Part shown: positions 1,699-37,845 of the stretch, piece by piece
Position numbering within the stretch: position 1 is the first letter of the stretch
Layout: each line of letters opens with the position of its first letter
From: Escherichia phage vB-Eco-KMB43
Direction: 5' to 3' (one strand)
Length of the DNA: 64,000 nt
Sequence record: OR525698.1
Notes under the pieces: model-generated
The model's input: only the letters and a program-made list of their open reading frames with translations
Told to the model about the DNA's origin: nothing
Database searches by the model: none
Program-made: the position numbers and the translations under genes

Positions 1699-3498
1699 AT
1701 GCTAATGTTTAATAACTCCGTTAAATGGTTTACCGGAATTGTAGAAAACAGGGAAGACCCATTAATGCTGGGGCGTGTTCAGGTTAGGATTCATGGTATA
1801 CATCCCTCGCTATCCGCACACGGTGACATTCAAGGTCTCCCAACCGAAGATCTATTATGGATTACGCCAGTACAAGATATTACAAGCGCGGCGATCTCCG
1901 GTATAGGTCAAAGCCCTACTGGTATTGTTGAAGGTTCAATGGTATTTGGTTTGGCTTTAGATGAACGTTATTTAAACTGCGTTATTCTGGGTACTATTGC
2001 CGGACAATATACAGAGAAACCACTCACTACAGAAGGTTTTTGCGACCCTTCTGGTGCATATCCTCGTTATATTGGTAATGATGTTAATATTCTTGCTCGT
2101 GGCGGTATTAACCCAGAAACCGGACAAACAACAAAACCTGATAGTGTCTATATTCGAGATGAAAACACTGGAGTTGCAGTAAATCCAGACGACGAGCCAT
2201 TAGACCAAATTCCGGTTGATGATAATCCTGATTTTACAATAGAAAAAATGCTGCGGGGCGATGAGGGATATCGCGAGAAATGGTATCTTGATTCAGAAGG
2301 ATATCCGACAATAGGCATCGGGCATTTGATCATTTATAAGAAAACCAGTGATCTGGGTATTATCAATAATGAACTTTCTAAGCTGGTAGGGCGTGAAGTT
2401 ACAAACGGAAGACTTACCGCCGAAGAAGTTAGTAAAGTATTTGCCGACGATATAGAAAAGACTCGTCGTGATATGCGCAAACATCCACGAATTGCACCTG
2501 TCTATAATAAATGTAATGCTTCTCGTCGTATGGCATTAGAAAATATGGCGTTTCAAATGGGTGTTGGTGGATTGGGTAAATTTAAGAATAGTCTTGCTGC
2601 GATGTTAGCGGAAGAATGGAAACAAGCCTATGATGGATTACGTCAATCTGTATGGGCTAACCAAACTCCAGGACGATCCAGCCGTGTTTCTAAAATTATT
2701 TTAACTGGTAACTTAGAATCATATGGCGTAATTGCTCCAAAGAAAGATGAATCTGTTTCTGATGATCCGCGAGCACGTTTGAGAAATGCCCGTATTGCTG
2801 CCTATAAGACGCAGAGAGCAGAAGAAGACCCAGAAGCACCGTTTACCCCACAAGACACACGAATCATGTTTAAAGAGCCTAAGAGTTCGTATTCTGCGAG
2901 GTATCCTTATAACCATGTGTACGAGTCAGAGAGCGGTCATATTATCGAGATTGATGATACTCCTTCTCACGAACGTTATCACCGCAAACATCCTTCTGGT
3001 ACATTTGAAGAAACCAGACCGGACGGAACGAGGGTAGAAAAGATTGAGGGTGATGATTATCTGATCGTTAAGCAAGGCCGGAAAGTCAACGTTAAGGGTA
3101 ATTTGCAAGTTGTTGTTGAAGGTGACGCGCAAGTTTATTATATGGGTAATGTAATGCAAACCGTTGATGGTAACGTCACTGAATTTATTCGTGGCAATGT
3201 TAATCAGACCGTTGAAGGTACTGCTAACATGCATGTTGTAGGTGATGTTACCGCTCAGCTTGACGCTAATTTAACGGCTAATGTCAAGGGTAATGCTGAA
3301 TTAATGATCGAGGGTAACACTACCGAAACAATTAAAGGTAACTATGATTTAACCGTTGAGGGTAATTTTAATATGACCGTCAATGGCACTAAATCAGATC
3401 AGGTTAATGGTGACTGGTCCCGTAATTGTGGTGCAAGCGTTAAAGATATTGCATCTGGTACAGTTAAAATTGATGGTAGCCGTATTGATCTTGGGTGA
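1699..3498 (+). CDS. gp5: baseplate hub/cell-puncturing protein gp5 with lysozyme domain
   Basis: 599 aa; internal T4-lysozyme-like segment YLDSEGYPTIGIGHL; C-terminal octapeptide-like beta-helix repeats (VxGNxxxxV pattern, e.g. VKGNLQVVVEGDAQV, VEGTANMHVVGDV). Confidence 0.85.
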   Translation: MLMFNNSVKWFTGIVENREDPLMLGRVQVRIHGIHPSLSAHGDIQGLPTEDLLWITPVQDITSAAISGIGQSPTGIVEGSMVFGLALDERYLNCVILGTIAGQYTEKPLTTEGFCDPSGAYPRYIGNDVNILARGGINPETGQTTKPDSVYIRDENTGVAVNPDDEPLDQIPVDDNPDFTIEKMLRGDEGYREKWYLDSEGYPTIGIGHLIIYKKTSDLGIINNELSKLVGREVTNGRLTAEEVSKVFADDIEKTRRDMRKHPRIAPVYNKCNASRRMALENMAFQMGVGGLGKFKNSLAAMLAEEWKQAYDGLRQSVWANQTPGRSSRVSKIILTGNLESYGVIAPKKDESVSDDPRARLRNARIAAYKTQRAEEDPEAPFTPQDTRIMFKEPKSSYSARYPYNHVYESESGHIIEIDDTPSHERYHRKHPSGTFEETRPDGTRVEKIEGDDYLIVKQGRKVNVKGNLQVVVEGDAQVYYMGNVMQTVDGNVTEFIRGNVNQTVEGTANMHVVGDVTAQLDANLTANVKGNAELMIEGNTTETIKGNYDLTVEGNFNMTVNGTKSDQVNGDWSRNCGASVKDIASGTVKIDGSRIDLG

Positions 3499-4073: not shown

Positions 4074-4366
4074 TGGCTGGATTATCCTACGATAAAGCTA
4101 AAACTACAGGGCACGGAAACTACCCACCTACGGTAATTAATGCAACTCAATCTAAGGTATTTGTTGAGGGTATCCCTGTATTAGTCGAAGGAGACCCAAT
4201 TACACCACATACAAAAACAACAAAGCCTTATGATACACACGGGGGAACTACGGTCGCCAGTACCCCGAAAGTATTTGTTACCGGAAAGAAAGCAATTCAA
4301 ATGGCAGATCGTATTAGCTGTGGCGATACCGTCGCTATGGCATCACCGAAGGTATTCATAAAATGA
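4073..4366 (+). CDS. 5.4: gp5.4-like spike-tip (PAAR-type) protein
   Basis: 97-aa ORF, same length and position as T4 gp5.4; start overlaps the 5.1 stop. Confidence 0.55.
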
Positions 4367-35178: not shown

Positions 35179-35375
35179 CACTTCGCCCCATTGACGATTA
35201 ACAGGATAGTGATCAGTACCGGAAACTGGATCATGACAGTACCAAAAAACCGGATAAACGCATTTTCCGACTTCCACACATGACATGCGACTAGCTGATA
35301 GACCATTGTTGCAACCAAAGCCAGAAAATACATCTCGATTGGTGCTTCTTTGATCAATCGTACAACCTCATTCAT
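35178..35375 (-). CDS. small hydrophobic (membrane) protein, 65 aa
   Basis: strong SD GAGGTGA 5 nt upstream of ATG 35375; two hydrophobic stretches. Confidence 0.4.
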   Translation of the reverse strand: MNEVVRLIKEAPIEMYFLALVATMVYQLVACHVWKSENAFIRFFGTVMIQFPVLITILLIVNGAK

Positions 35376-35569
35376 ACTTCACCTCATACATTCATAAACA
35401 CAACAACGAATAGGACAGTAACAGTTATTAAAGCCATTTTCAACCCCATATTCATAATATTTTCCTCATAGGGTAACGCCCTGTCGATGCGTGCCATTAT
35501 AGGCATCTAAATCGCTCTGTCAAGCACAAAAACAAAAAAGCCACCCCGAAGGATGGCTGATAGATTTCA

Positions 35570-36784
35570 TTAAGCAGGATGCGTTTCACGAATGCGTAGA
35601 ACTCGCTCTAACGTCTCTCGGTCCAGTTTATGTAACTTTTTGGACTGATACATGAAACCATTGCGAGATTCCATGCAAGTGCAATCACTATATTTTTCTT
35701 CCGCTGCCGCGATTGTCTCCAGATCTTTGGCGTACTTGCTGGTTGAATAAACTTCTCGGTTACGCCACTCTAACCCAGCCTCATTGAATTTAACAATCTC
35801 GTCAAATACCCACCATCCAATGTAGATAAATGAAGTTTTGCGCCACGGGATCGGGTGTACGTAACGAAACATTTTAACAACTTCCATTGAACATTTTCTA
35901 CTTGTACTTGTTGCAACTTCTACTGTTTCATCTTCGATCTGTTGATATAGTTTAGCAACACACCAGAATTTGGCTGTGTCATCGTAAGTAGCACTCTCTT
36001 TGAACAGATGACCGTCTGGCATGATAGAAAATCCTTCCTGTGCTTCGCCGACCTCACTACCGATCAGAGTCGGTGACAGTTGCCCTTCGCGCTGCAAATA
36101 CCAGTTATATTTGATCGTCAATTCAGGCATACCGCTAGAATCGCCTACAATGTTCTCTGACACAACATAATTAAGTAAGATCTCATTACCTAGTGCCACG
36201 GTCTTTGATTCCACCACATCCTGATCTACGTTCATTGTTGCCAGCATGATTTTAGTCGATGCGCTAGCGGCTGAATCTTCCGACTCACCCCACACTTTTA
36301 CAGTATACACGCCGTTTTTATCTGCTGTAAATTTTTGGATCGTAATATCCTGTGTTGTGTCTATAACGTCTTCGCCCTTACTCCAACTATAATGTAGTTC
36401 ATAGTTGTCTGCTGGAGTATTCCCACCAGAAAATTTTACTGTTGCATGTAATTCTACGTCTGTTTGTGATGATACGTAGAAATGCTGCGGTTCGGTGATA
36501 TTTACGATTAATTCAGCTTCTTCCATGAGGAAAACTTCAGATTCTACTGATTCCGTCGTATCGGTATCTTGTACCGTTACTTTATAGCTACCCGCATTTT
36601 CACTTGTTGCACCTACTACAGATAGCGTAGCTGTGCTATTTTCATGTGGTTGGTCGTCTTTTGTCCATGTATATGTCAAATTGCTGGGTAATGGTTCGTC
36701 ACCCGCTACAGTCGCCGTTAAGGTGAAACCATCTCCAGCAAGAAAACATCTTTTGTCAGATTTAATTGATACTGTGAAAGTCAT
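35570..36784 (-). CDS. hoc: Hoc-like outer capsid decoration protein with Ig-like domains
   Basis: 404 aa; repeated Ig-like segments (LTYTWTKDD..., GSYKVTV, YTVKVWG); hoc position upstream of inh on the minus strand. Confidence 0.6.
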   Translation of the reverse strand: MTFTVSIKSDKRCFLAGDGFTLTATVAGDEPLPSNLTYTWTKDDQPHENSTATLSVVGATSENAGSYKVTVQDTDTTESVESEVFLMEEAELIVNITEPQHFYVSSQTDVELHATVKFSGGNTPADNYELHYSWSKGEDVIDTTQDITIQKFTADKNGVYTVKVWGESEDSAASASTKIMLATMNVDQDVVESKTVALGNEILLNYVVSENIVGDSSGMPELTIKYNWYLQREGQLSPTLIGSEVGEAQEGFSIMPDGHLFKESATYDDTAKFWCVAKLYQQIEDETVEVATSTSRKCSMEVVKMFRYVHPIPWRKTSFIYIGWWVFDEIVKFNEAGLEWRNREVYSTSKYAKDLETIAAAEEKYSDCTCMESRNGFMYQSKKLHKLDRETLERVLRIRETHPA

Positions 36785-36953
36785 ATAAAGCCACTCCCAT
36801 AGAAAATCCGAATTTAATTAATTGAAATAGTTGATTGCCATCAACCAGATAACCATTGCGAGATTCCAATACATGAGTATTAGAATAGTGATGTAACGAG
36901 GCCGAAATAGTATCGATCTCGTCTGGGTATTTGTTCTGTTTGATGTAATACAT
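36762..36953 (-). other. short ORF resembling the Hoc C-terminal segment (possible duplicated fragment or mini-gene)
   Basis: 63-aa ORF; peptide NKYPDEIDTISASLHHYSNTHVLESRNGYL parallels Hoc SKYAKDLETIAAAEEKYSDCTCMESRNGFM; 18-nt identity AACCATTGCGAGATTCCA at 36852-36869 and 35656-35673; no SD. Confidence 0.3.
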
Positions 36954-37049
36954 TGATTTTGTTAGAAATGTAGTATCCTCTTTTTAATTGCATAACGGAA
37001 CTACAATTAAAATTATAACAAATATTTCACAACTTTTATCACCCAAAAA

Positions 37050-37775
37050 TTACTTGAGTGTGTGGAATTGGCTGTGTTTAGTCTCTCGCACCTTGACAGA
37101 CCCATCGCGTTTGATATAATAGATCAGCGACTTGAGGGTGTCGTGTACATACGCGTGCGGGAAACGTTCTGGATACTTCTTCCAATCTGGAGTATTAACG
37201 ATCCAGTCGAAAATCCACCACGGGCAGGAGTAGTAACCACGACCGCCACCGATCAAGCAAATGGTCGGACGGAAGCCAGTAAGATCGCAAAATGAATCAG
37301 TGTCATGTGCTGGGGAACGATGCTCTGCTTCGTTAGAGAAAATGTTGGCTACCGGAGATTCCACTTTAACTTCCGGTGCTTCTTCAACATCTGACTTAAC
37401 TTCTTCGACCACTGGTTCAACTGCCGGAGATTCTTCTTTTGTTTCTTCAATGACGATCTCAGGTTCTTTCATTGCTTCAACCAGAGACGGATCAACTTCG
37501 TCGAATACCACTTTATCATCTGCGGTGTCTGCTGCCAGAATAAGATCGTTAATACTGGTTCCTTCTGCCGGAGTTTCTTCTTCCATTTCGGAAGCCAGTT
37601 TAGTTAATTCTGTTTCTACGAACTCGATCATGTTCTCTAGCGAGAGCGTCTTTTTGACCTTTATATCAAATTGTTTTGCGTAGTCCGCTAATTCTGTTTT
37701 AGCGGCTTTCTGTGATTCTTTGTCGTCGGACGCCGCAATAGCGCGGAGTTCTTCGAAATATTCTTTATCAAACAT
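37050..37775 (-). CDS. inh: Inh-like protein (inhibitor of prohead protease), by position only
   Basis: 241 aa; acidic central region; location adjacent to hoc as in T4. Confidence 0.3.
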   Translation of the reverse strand: MFDKEYFEELRAIAASDDKESQKAAKTELADYAKQFDIKVKKTLSLENMIEFVETELTKLASEMEEETPAEGTSINDLILAADTADDKVVFDEVDPSLVEAMKEPEIVIEETKEESPAVEPVVEEVKSDVEEAPEVKVESPVANIFSNEAEHRSPAHDTDSFCDLTGFRPTICLIGGGRGYYSCPWWIFDWIVNTPDWKKYPERFPHAYVHDTLKSLIYYIKRDGSVKVRETKHSQFHTLK

Positions 37776-37801: not shown

Positions 37802-37809
37802 TATAAATA
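37802..37809 (+). promoter_or_regulatory. late promoter TATAAATA upstream of uvsW
   Basis: exact TATAAATA 37 nt upstream of ATG 37846. Confidence 0.5.
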
Positions 37810-37845
37810 TTTGTATACTGTATTTATTGAGTGAGGCTATTCGCT

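What the first reader, a model, noticed from the sequence alone, without database searches (positions are those of the whole stretch)
36762..36953. Mini-ORF upstream of hoc that duplicates the Hoc C-terminal segment
A 63-codon frame overlapping the hoc start encodes a peptide closely paralleling the Hoc C-terminus (KY..D..TI.A....YS.....ESRNG), with an 18-nt exact identity (AACCATTGCGAGATTCCA) between the two loci. It has no convincing ribosome-binding site. It may be a remnant of a partial hoc duplication or recombination, or a separately expressed capsid-binding peptide.
Basis: seen in the sequence. Interest (0 to 1): 0.4.

Follow-up and report, generated by a model that had tools for sequence, protein, structure and literature searches.

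The report
Relic of a deleted long-Hoc gene
The 63-codon frame upstream of hoc is the dead leftover of a second, much longer head-decoration (Hoc) gene that sister phages still carry intact, so it is ordinary gene decay and not a new capsid-binding peptide.

Summary
The frame 36762..36953 (-) matches the Hoc C-terminus (14/39 identities, E=3e-8). The 18-nt identity is exact and occurs only at 35656..35673 and 36851..36868. The frame has no Shine-Dalgarno.

The window is an RB49-like Krischvirus. Six sister genomes (JK32, SSG23, SFHK24, Brandy, UPWr_E1, G2248) and 13 metagenome protein clusters carry an intact 841-847 aa "long Hoc" between inh and hoc. It has about eight Ig-like modules and a Hoc capsid-binding domain.

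The window keeps only that gene's leader, ribosome-binding site, first 12 codons and last 36 codons, joined out of frame. Decay went in steps:
- A deletion of about 2.3 kb came first; 12 records (Phi1 type) still show this state.
- A further 75-bp deletion between CAGAA repeats followed, giving the window type (40 records).
- The stop codon was lost (TAA to CAA), the downstream terminator hairpin was lost, and here the start became ATT.

The mini-ORF's ATG is a frame-shifted by-product of the 75-bp deletion, and that frame is closed in Phi1-type genomes. Substitutions are near neutral in the relics (9 nonsynonymous, 3 synonymous) against 1 and 26 in intact genes (p=9e-6).

Verdict: a pseudogene relic, of low interest.

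The parts
37050..37775 (-). inh (inhibitor of prohead protease), the upstream neighbour. The only late-promoter-like motifs on this strand (AATAAATA at 37828..37821, TACAAATA at 37815..37808) lie upstream of it.
36970..37049 (-). Conserved leader of the former long-hoc gene, including its Shine-Dalgarno AAGAGGA (36982..36976). It is 94-100% identical across relic-bearing and intact genomes.
36934..36969 (-). Relic of long-hoc codons 1-12 (I-SNKINVLHQTE). The start codon is ATT here (36969..36967) and ATG in all 16 other relic genomes sampled. From this start the reading frame runs out of frame to a TAA at 36882..36880.
36933..36938 (-). Deletion junctions. The single surviving CAGAA copy (36938..36934) marks the secondary 75-bp deletion. 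GAA|C (36934|36933) is the primary out-of-frame junction of about 2.3 kb, shared with Phi1-type genomes.
36825..36932 (-). Relic of the last 36 codons of long hoc (KYPDEIDTISASLHHYSNTHVLESRNGYLVDGNQLF), corresponding to mini-ORF residues 8-43. The ESRNG codons are at 36866..36852 and the 18-nt identity with hoc is at 36868..36851.
36822..36824 (-). Former long-hoc stop codon, TAA in all intact genes and CAA in all relic genomes sampled. Its loss lets the frame run on into hoc.
36785..36821 (-). Former long-hoc/hoc spacer. The intrinsic terminator hairpin of intact genomes (GCCGACCTTCGGGTCGGCTTTT) is reduced to TTCGGATTTT. The hoc Shine-Dalgarno GGAG is at 36797..36794.
36762..36953 (-). The flagged 63-codon frame. 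Residues 1-7 are frame-shifted N-terminal relic plus junction, 8-43 are the C-terminal relic, and 44-63 are read-through of the lost stop across the spacer into the first 23 nt of hoc.
35570..36784 (-). Resident short hoc: 404 aa, three Ig-like domains plus the capsid-binding domain. Residues 1-304 match PDB 3SHS (RB49 Hoc). Its ESRNG codons lie within the 18-nt repeat at 35656..35673.

Best explanation
The mini-ORF is a non-functional pseudogene relic. The ancestor of the RB49 clade of Krischvirus carried two tandem head-decoration genes downstream of inh. One was a long hoc of about 846 aa, with about eight Ig-like modules plus a Hoc capsid-binding domain. The other was the short three-Ig hoc. 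An illegitimate internal deletion of about 2.3 kb, not a multiple of three, joined long-hoc codon 37 (codon 40 by UPWr_E1 numbering) to a point one base before its last 36 codons. This killed the gene and gave the Phi1-type state. A second deletion of exactly 75 bp between two CAGAA repeats then removed codons 13-37, giving the window-type state. As a side effect, an ATG made from the out-of-frame bases of codons 6-7 (AAT GTA) now reads straight into the old C-terminal frame. Later decay removed the stop codon (TAA to CAA) and the downstream terminator hairpin. In this window it also changed the original start (ATG to ATT). The open 63-codon frame is therefore an accident of these events. The DNA now probably serves only as transcribed spacer carrying the hoc ribosome-binding site. 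Shown: the homology, the junctions, the frames and the substitution pattern. Inferred: the lack of expression, and co-transcription of hoc with inh through the relic.
For: (1) Six Krischvirus records have an intact 2541-2544 nt gene exactly between inh and hoc. No RB49-clade record has it anywhere (only 6 records cover at least 80% of the query). (2) blastn splits the window's inh-hoc spacer into a 5' part colinear with the inh stop, leader and first codons of long hoc, and a 3' part colinear with its last codons and the hoc start. Alignments show the junctions. (3) The net loss is 2318-2321 nt, which leaves a remainder of 2 on division by 3, so the original start reads out of frame to a TAA at 36882..36880. 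(4) The extra 75 bp in Phi1-type genomes is homologous to long-hoc codons 13-40 and is flanked by CAGAA repeats. The right-hand junction is identical in both types. (5) In Phi1-type genomes the ATG-initiated frame hits TAA and the C-terminal frame is preceded by TAG, so no start codon is available. (6) Over the 36 shared codons, 5 intact genomes show 26 synonymous and 1 nonsynonymous differences, while 17 relic genomes show 3 and 9 (Fisher p=9.4e-6). The relic ratio fits the neutral expectation of 77% nonsynonymous (p=0.74). The relic-specific residues D7, S10, D/G32 and N33 sit at positions invariant in all 18 intact alleles seen. JSE has ESRNG changed to EYRNG. (7) Stop codon, terminator hairpin and, in the window, start codon are all lost. 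(8) There is no Shine-Dalgarno before the ATG at 36953. (9) The relic keeps only 36 residues, aligning to window Hoc 349-384 (about T4 Hoc 334-367). It therefore lacks beta-strands 1-2 and helix 1, which carry the conserved contact residues Tyr293, His295, Arg300 and Trp309/310.
Against: There are no expression data of any kind. The frame is open with an ATG in 40 of 52 relic records, and the ESRNG loop is intact in all sampled relics except JSE. Gene callers annotate the frame (RB49p168.2, ELT3_91, SKERS_33) and PHROGs holds it as a family. The relic has not been erased in any of the 52 RB49-clade records. That could hint at constraint, although the clade is only 2-4% divergent at this locus, so persistence is also expected by recency. 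The substitution counts are small: 12 events.
Confidence: 0.9

Rival explanations
1. The mini-ORF is translated into a small protein that keeps the ESRNG capsid-binding loop and binds gp23 hexamer centres. There it would modulate or compete with Hoc decoration.
For: The ORF is open with an ATG in 40 records. ESRNG is intact in the window, and this loop is the conserved capsid-contact element of Hoc. The ORF overlaps the hoc start, so some translational interplay is conceivable.
Against: No Shine-Dalgarno. The ATG is a frame-shifted accident of a secondary deletion. The frame is closed in 12 Phi1-type records. The substitution pattern is near neutral. JSE carries EYRNG. Less than half of the capsid-binding domain remains, without beta-strands 1-2, helix 1 or the hydrophobic core described for T4 Hoc. 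The 20-residue tail is read-through of a former spacer.
Confidence: 0.04
2. The relic is dead as a coding sequence but is retained because it acts in cis for hoc. The conserved long-hoc leader and the transcribed relic would form the promoter-proximal region and 5' UTR through which hoc is expressed. Loss of the terminator hairpin would then have been selected to restore hoc expression. This reading is compatible with the relic explanation.
For: The 70-nt leader is 94-100% identical across clades in which hoc itself is only 68-93% identical. No late-promoter-like motif (TATAAATA, up to 1 mismatch) lies between inh and hoc in relic or intact genomes; such motifs occur only upstream of inh. hoc must therefore be transcribed through this DNA. 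The terminator present in intact genomes is destroyed in all relic genomes, and no terminator-like site is found there in the window. The hoc Shine-Dalgarno lies inside the mini-ORF. The leader contains TGTTATAAT, an extended -10-like motif.
Against: No transcript mapping exists. The leader's predicted RNA fold is no better than shuffles (z=-0.59). The sigma-70 scan did not call a promoter there. The motif is TATGTT or TATGAT in intact genomes. Conservation within the young RB49 clade is uninformative.
Confidence: 0.2
3. The segment arose by a partial tandem duplication, or by gene conversion, of the 3' end of the resident short hoc.
For: The 18-nt exact identity with the resident hoc. The relic's Arg codon is CGC as in hoc, whereas intact long-hoc alleles have CGT. 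A micro-conversion of one base therefore cannot be excluded.
Against: The relic is 77-93% identical in DNA to the long-hoc 3' end over 111 nt, but only 36% identical in protein to the resident Hoc tail. Outside the ESRNG codons the two window copies share no extended DNA identity. The relic is also physically joined to long-hoc 5' codons.
Confidence: 0.02

Closest known systems
Hoc (highly immunogenic outer capsid protein) of T4-family phages, C-terminal capsid-binding domain with the Glu-Ser-Arg-Asn-Gly loop
   Same: The relic's 36 residues are homologous to the last part of that domain and keep ESRNG. The PHROG 'Hoc-like head decoration' profile matches at E=2.9e-6, BLASTP to the window's Hoc gives E=3e-8, and the loop is described in PMC10385173.
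   Different: Fewer than half of the domain's residues remain. There are no Ig-like domains (no Pfam hit), no translation signals and no purifying selection. It is a fragment, not a Hoc protein.
Phages with two Hoc genes, one long and one short (Serratia phage Muldoon with 1174 aa and 314 aa; Enterobacter phage PG7), as described in PMC10385173
   Same: The ancestral state inferred here, still present in JK32, SSG23, SFHK24, Brandy, UPWr_E1 and G2248, is a long Hoc of about eight Ig-like modules next to a short three-Ig Hoc. Both have a Hoc capsid-binding domain, 49% identical to each other.
   Different: In the window the long member has been deleted down to 148 nt. The two-Hoc state in Krischvirus was not found described in the searched literature.
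Annotated hypothetical ORFs RB49p168.2 / phrog_32100 and Phi1 ORF168.1 / JSE EpJSE_00174 / phrog_19377
   Same: The mini-ORF is a member of phrog_32100 (E=1.2e-47) and corresponds to RB49p168.2. The overlapping 37-aa frame (36880..36993) belongs to phrog_19377.
   Different: The databases list both as 'unknown function'. Here phrog_32100 maps to long-Hoc residues 809-846 and phrog_19377 to residues 1-34, so they are the two ends of one broken gene read in different frames.

Membership tests
Functional Hoc-family capsid decoration protein | Complete C-terminal capsid-binding domain (T4 Hoc residues 281-376: four-stranded beta-sheet plus three-helix bundle, PMC10385173) | tested here: not met
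   Only 36 homologous residues remain, aligning to window Hoc 349-384 (about T4 334-367). Beta-strands 1-2 and helix 1, with the conserved Tyr293, His295, Arg300 and Trp309/310, are absent.
Functional Hoc-family capsid decoration protein | Conserved ESRNG loop between beta-strands 3 and 4 | tested here: met
   ESRNG is present at mini-ORF residues 30-34 (36866..36852). It is mutated to EYRNG in JSE.
Functional Hoc-family capsid decoration protein | One or more N-terminal Ig-like domains forming the fibre | tested here: not met
   Pfam finds no family in the mini-ORF. The intact long Hoc and the short Hoc both score Ig and PKD families.
Functional Hoc-family capsid decoration protein | Expressed gene: start codon with a ribosome-binding site, frame conserved among relatives, purifying selection | tested here: not met
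   No Shine-Dalgarno. The frame is closed in 12 Phi1-type records. 9 nonsynonymous against 3 synonymous changes, compared with 1 against 26 in intact genes. Expression itself cannot be tested with these tools.
Deletion relic (pseudogene) of a gene intact in relatives | An intact homologue at the same position between the same neighbours in related genomes | tested here: met
   Long hoc lies between inh and hoc in JK32, SSG23, G2248, UPWr_E1 and Brandy. SFHK24 has it too, by tblastn.
Deletion relic (pseudogene) of a gene intact in relatives | Both flanks of the relic colinear with the 5' and 3' ends of the intact gene, with a definable junction | tested here: met
   The blastn split lies at window 36938-36940.
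Deletion relic (pseudogene) of a gene intact in relatives | Disrupted reading frame and loss of gene signals | tested here: met
   The net loss leaves a remainder of 2 on division by 3. The stop changed from TAA to CAA, the terminator hairpin is lost, and the start is ATT in the window.
Deletion relic (pseudogene) of a gene intact in relatives | Relaxed selection relative to the intact gene | tested here: met
   Fisher p=9.4e-6. The relic ratio is consistent with neutrality (p=0.74). The counts are small.
phrog_32100 (unknown function) | Full-length profile match | tested here: met
   E=1.2e-47, residues 1-63 against profile positions 1-63 of 65.

The most novel reading that the evidence does not exclude
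The relic is not fully inert. In window-type genomes the accidental ATG-started frame might yield a low-abundance 63-aa peptide. It would carry the ESRNG loop plus beta-strands 3-4 of a Hoc capsid-binding domain, dock weakly at gp23 hexamer centres and tune Hoc occupancy. That would make it a new micro-protein born from a pseudogene. A milder version: the relic and its conserved leader have become the obligatory 5' UTR or promoter region of hoc.
Probability: 0.04. Interest if true: 0.5.

Novelty: new member of a known kind. Interest (0 to 1): 0.2.

Why it matters
The main value is to annotation and evolutionary history.
- Two 'hypothetical protein' ORFs annotated in many RB49-like genomes, and two PHROG families of unknown function (phrog_32100 and phrog_19377), turn out to be the two ends of one broken gene. 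They should be flagged as pseudogene fragments.
- RB49, the phage whose Hoc gave the crystal structure of the Ig-like fibre, descends from an ancestor with two Hoc fibres: about eight Ig-like modules and three. The long one was lost in steps.
- The genus therefore holds natural 'long Hoc present' and 'long Hoc deleted' sister lineages. These could be used to ask what a second, longer decoration fibre does, and how two Hocs share one binding site per hexamer.

Tried and rejected
- Pfam scan of the mini-ORF found no family.
- Exact TATAAATA, and the same motif with up to 1 mismatch, were sought on the hoc strand between inh and hoc, in the window and in intact loci. None was found; such motifs lie only upstream of inh. 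A promoter reason for keeping the relic could therefore not be shown.
- The RNA fold of the leader (36940..37049, minus strand) gave -16 kcal/mol, z=-0.59, no better than shuffles. The visible GTAGT...ACTAC stem around the Shine-Dalgarno was not pursued.
- The generic sigma-70 and terminator scan called nothing inside the relic.
- Literature searches for ESRNG, for Krischvirus plus Hoc, and a read of PMC11162368 (a UPEC phage paper that includes a Krischvirus isolate, vKMB43) found no description of the long Hoc or of the relic.
- I considered that the 18-nt identity reflects gene conversion from hoc. Intact long-hoc alleles differ from hoc by one base (CGT against CGC) inside the same run. 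The identity is therefore explained by the conserved ESRNG codons plus a single T-to-C change, and conversion is neither needed nor excluded.
- I considered that the long gene was gained in the JK32 group. This was rejected because the relic carries both ends of the gene, joined out of frame, with decayed signals.
- No structure prediction was run. A 36-residue domain fragment would not give an interpretable model.

Full report
**Setting.** The window is an RB49-like T4-type phage of the genus Krischvirus. The 2.5 kb around the finding is 96-98.6% identical to W115, Phi1, JSE, GEC-3S and about 50 other records. On the minus strand the order is inh (37050..37775), a 265-nt spacer, then hoc (35570..36784, 404 aa). 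uvsW diverges on the plus strand. The Hoc protein has Ig/PKD-type domains. Its residues 1-304 match PDB 3SHS (RB49 Hoc), and residues 297-381 match T4 Hoc 282-364.

**Observation check.**
- The 63-codon frame 36762..36953 (-) exists and overlaps the first 23 nt of hoc.
- It aligns with Hoc residues 349-387: 14/39 identical, E=3e-8.
- The 18-mer AACCATTGCGAGATTCCA is present exactly at 35656..35673 and 36851..36868 and nowhere else, with none expected by chance.
- The sequence before its ATG has no Shine-Dalgarno.

**What it is.**
- A tblastn search with the 63-aa peptide found only Krischvirus records, in three groups: 40 records with full-length matches, 12 lacking the first 5-6 residues, and 6 with 75-85% identity (JK32, Brandy, SSG23, SFHK24, G2248, UPWr_E1).
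- In those six the match lies at the end of a 2541-2544 nt gene sitting exactly between inh and hoc. JK32 annotates it as a second 'Hoc head outer capsid protein'.
- Its product of 846-847 aa scores Ig_3, Ig_2 and I-set families and the PHROG 'Hoc-like head decoration' family.
- It has eight G-x-Y-x-C-x-V-type motifs spaced about 95 residues apart.
- It ends in a domain 49% identical to the capsid-binding domain of the window's Hoc (E=1e-25).
- Thirteen further clusters of 841-847 aa, at 60-97% identity, exist in metagenome assemblies. No RB49-clade record holds an intact copy anywhere.

**Anatomy of the relic.** blastn splits the window's spacer in two. Window 37100..36938 is colinear with the inh stop, an 80-nt leader and the first codons of long hoc. 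Window 36940..36700 is colinear with its last codons, the spacer and the hoc start. Reading the minus strand:
- The long-hoc Shine-Dalgarno AAGAGGA (36982..36976) survives.
- Six bases later comes the old start, ATT in this window and ATG in all 16 other relic genomes sampled.
- Codons 1-12 follow (SNKINVLHQTE, identical to UPWr_E1 residues 2-12), then the junction GAA|C at 36934|36933.
- Next come the last 36 codons (36932..36825).
- The former stop is now CAA (36824..36822).
- The net loss relative to intact genes is 2318-2321 nt, not a multiple of three. The old start therefore reads a junk frame ending at 36882..36880. This is the ORF annotated in JSE, and in a longer form in Phi1.

**Two-step deletion.**
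- Twelve records (Phi1, GEC-3S, ECD7, the three Makalu phages, MIZ4, MIZ5, G37-3, including RefSeq duplicates) carry 75 extra bases.
- These bases are homologous to long-hoc codons 13-40 and are bracketed by CAGAA on both sides.
- The right-hand junction (CAGAA-CAAATACCC) is identical in both types.
- The Phi1 type is therefore the older state. The window type arose from it by a 75-bp deletion between the 5-bp repeats, leaving one copy at 36938..36934.
- This has a direct consequence for the finding. The mini-ORF's ATG (36953) is made of the out-of-frame bases of codons 6-7 (AAT GTA).
- Only after the 75-bp deletion does that frame run into the old C-terminal frame.
- In Phi1-type genomes the same ATG meets a TAA after 19 codons, and the C-terminal frame is preceded by TAG, so there is no ATG-started mini-ORF.
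- Mini-ORF residues 1-7 are thus frame-shifted N-terminal relic, residues 8-43 are the true C-terminal relic, and residues 44-63 are read-through of the lost stop across the old spacer into hoc.

**Further decay.** Intact genomes have a GC-rich hairpin followed by a T-run (GCCGACCTTCGGGTCGGCTTTT) between long hoc and hoc. G2248 annotates it as a terminator. In all relic genomes it is reduced to TTCGGATTTT, and no terminator-like site is detected there in the window.

**Selection.**
- Over the 36 shared codons, five intact genomes differ by 26 synonymous and 1 nonsynonymous changes.
- Seventeen relic genomes differ by 3 synonymous and 9 nonsynonymous changes. Fisher's exact test gives p=9.4e-6.
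- The relic ratio fits the neutral expectation of 77% nonsynonymous sites (p=0.74), and the intact ratio does not (p=4e-16).
- The relic-specific residues (Glu to Asp, Ala to Ser, Gly to Asp or Ser, Thr to Asn) fall at positions invariant in all 18 intact alleles seen. JSE has changed ESRNG to EYRNG.
- The relic's DNA divergence from JK32 (91.9%) equals that of hoc (92.1%), so the deletion is young relative to the split between clades.

**Could the peptide still bind capsids?**
- PMC10385173 describes the T4 Hoc capsid-binding domain (residues 281-376) as a four-stranded beta-sheet under a three-helix bundle with a 14-residue hydrophobic core.
- Capsid contacts come from Tyr293, His295, Arg300, Tyr304, Trp306 and Trp309/310, as well as from the Glu355-Gly359 loop between strands 3 and 4.
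- The relic corresponds roughly to T4 residues 334-367. It keeps the loop and strands 3-4 but lacks strands 1-2, helix 1 and most of the core.
- That an isolated fragment of this kind would not fold or bind is an inference, not a test.

**The 18-nt identity.** It covers TG-GAA-TCT-CGC-AAT-GGT-T, the ESRNG codons. Intact long-hoc alleles read CGT where hoc reads CGC. The run therefore reflects conserved motif codons plus one T-to-C change in the relic lineage. A one-base conversion from hoc is possible but not needed.

**How hoc is probably expressed (inference).** No TATAAATA-like motif, allowing up to one mismatch, lies on the hoc strand between inh and hoc, either here or in intact genomes. 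Two such motifs lie just upstream of inh. hoc is therefore probably co-transcribed with inh through the relic, which also carries the hoc Shine-Dalgarno (GGAG, 36797..36794). The long-hoc leader is 94-100% conserved across clades in which hoc is only 68-93% identical. It may hold a regulatory signal, but its RNA fold is unremarkable. I rate cis-acting retention as a possible secondary role (0.2). It does not compete with the relic explanation.

**Comparison with what is known.**
- Phages with one long and one short Hoc are already described: Muldoon and PG7 (PMC10385173). The six Krischvirus genomes add another example.
- I found no description of this in the searched literature.
- The mini-ORF is annotated as RB49p168.2, ELT3_91 and SKERS_33, and forms phrog_32100. 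The frame-shifted N-terminal ORF forms phrog_19377. Both PHROG profiles map onto the two ends of long Hoc.
- The mini-ORF fails the membership test for a functional Hoc protein: the domain is incomplete, there are no Ig domains, no translation signals and no purifying selection. It passes every tested criterion for a deletion relic.

**Verdict.** This is ordinary gene decay with a cleanly reconstructible history. It is useful for annotation and as a pointer to the two-Hoc state in the genus. Interest is 0.2. Confidence in the relic explanation is 0.9.

Noticed in passing
L004:1580-4120 (JK32); also L005, L006, L007, L009 and proteins P0001-P0013: An intact 'long Hoc' of 841-847 aa (about eight Ig-like modules plus a Hoc capsid-binding domain) sits next to the normal three-Ig hoc in six Krischvirus genomes and 13 metagenome clusters. 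Its length is tightly conserved while identity falls to 60%. This two-Hoc configuration was not found described for the genus in the searched papers.
   Followed up: partly
L004 about 4129-4150; L006:4129-4148 (annotated terminator); window 36785..36821: Intact genomes have a strong hairpin followed by a T-run between long hoc and hoc, only about 24 nt before the hoc ATG, so hoc there must depend on read-through. The hairpin is destroyed in every relic genome sampled.
   Followed up: partly
window 36970..37049 (-): The leader between the inh stop and the former long-hoc start is 94-100% identical across clades whose hoc genes are only 68-93% identical. It contains TGTTATAAT (extended -10-like) and a GTAGT...ACTAC stem around the Shine-Dalgarno. 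A regulatory role is possible but not demonstrated.
   Followed up: partly
window 37093..37120 (+): A perfect 12/12 sigma-70 consensus (TTGACA, 16-nt spacer, TATAAT, with an upstream TG) lies inside the 3' end of inh on the opposite strand. It points antisense through inh towards uvsW.
   Followed up: no
window 35558..35539 and 35523..35496 (-): Directly after hoc there is a terminator-like hairpin (AGCCATCCTTCGGGGTGGCT followed by T-rich sequence), then a perfect 12/12 sigma-70 consensus promoter on the same strand.
   Followed up: no
L020:2155-3365 (vB_EcoM_G37-3): In this relative the short hoc is annotated as two separate ORFs (2155..2484 and 2913..3365). hoc therefore seems disrupted there as well, leaving no intact Hoc gene at this locus in that record.
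   Followed up: no
L017:372-1103 (vB_EcoM_G5211): A putative group I intron or homing endonuclease ORF sits between the uvsW reading frame and inh in this relative. It is absent from the window.
   Followed up: no
L003:1480-1677 (phiS) = window about 35373..35570: phiS annotates a 65-aa ORF just downstream of hoc as 'head outer capsid protein'. In the window the same stretch holds only two short overlapping ORFs (35384..35506 and 35497..35589). The label was not checked.
   Followed up: no
window 37050..37775 compared with L008, L012, L013, L017: inh occurs in two allele groups. One is 726 nt and 96-100% identical to the window. The other is 729 nt and only 92-93% identical (RB49, MIZ2, kaaroe, G5211). 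These groups do not track hoc identity (about 97% in both), which suggests recombination breakpoints around this locus.
   Followed up: no
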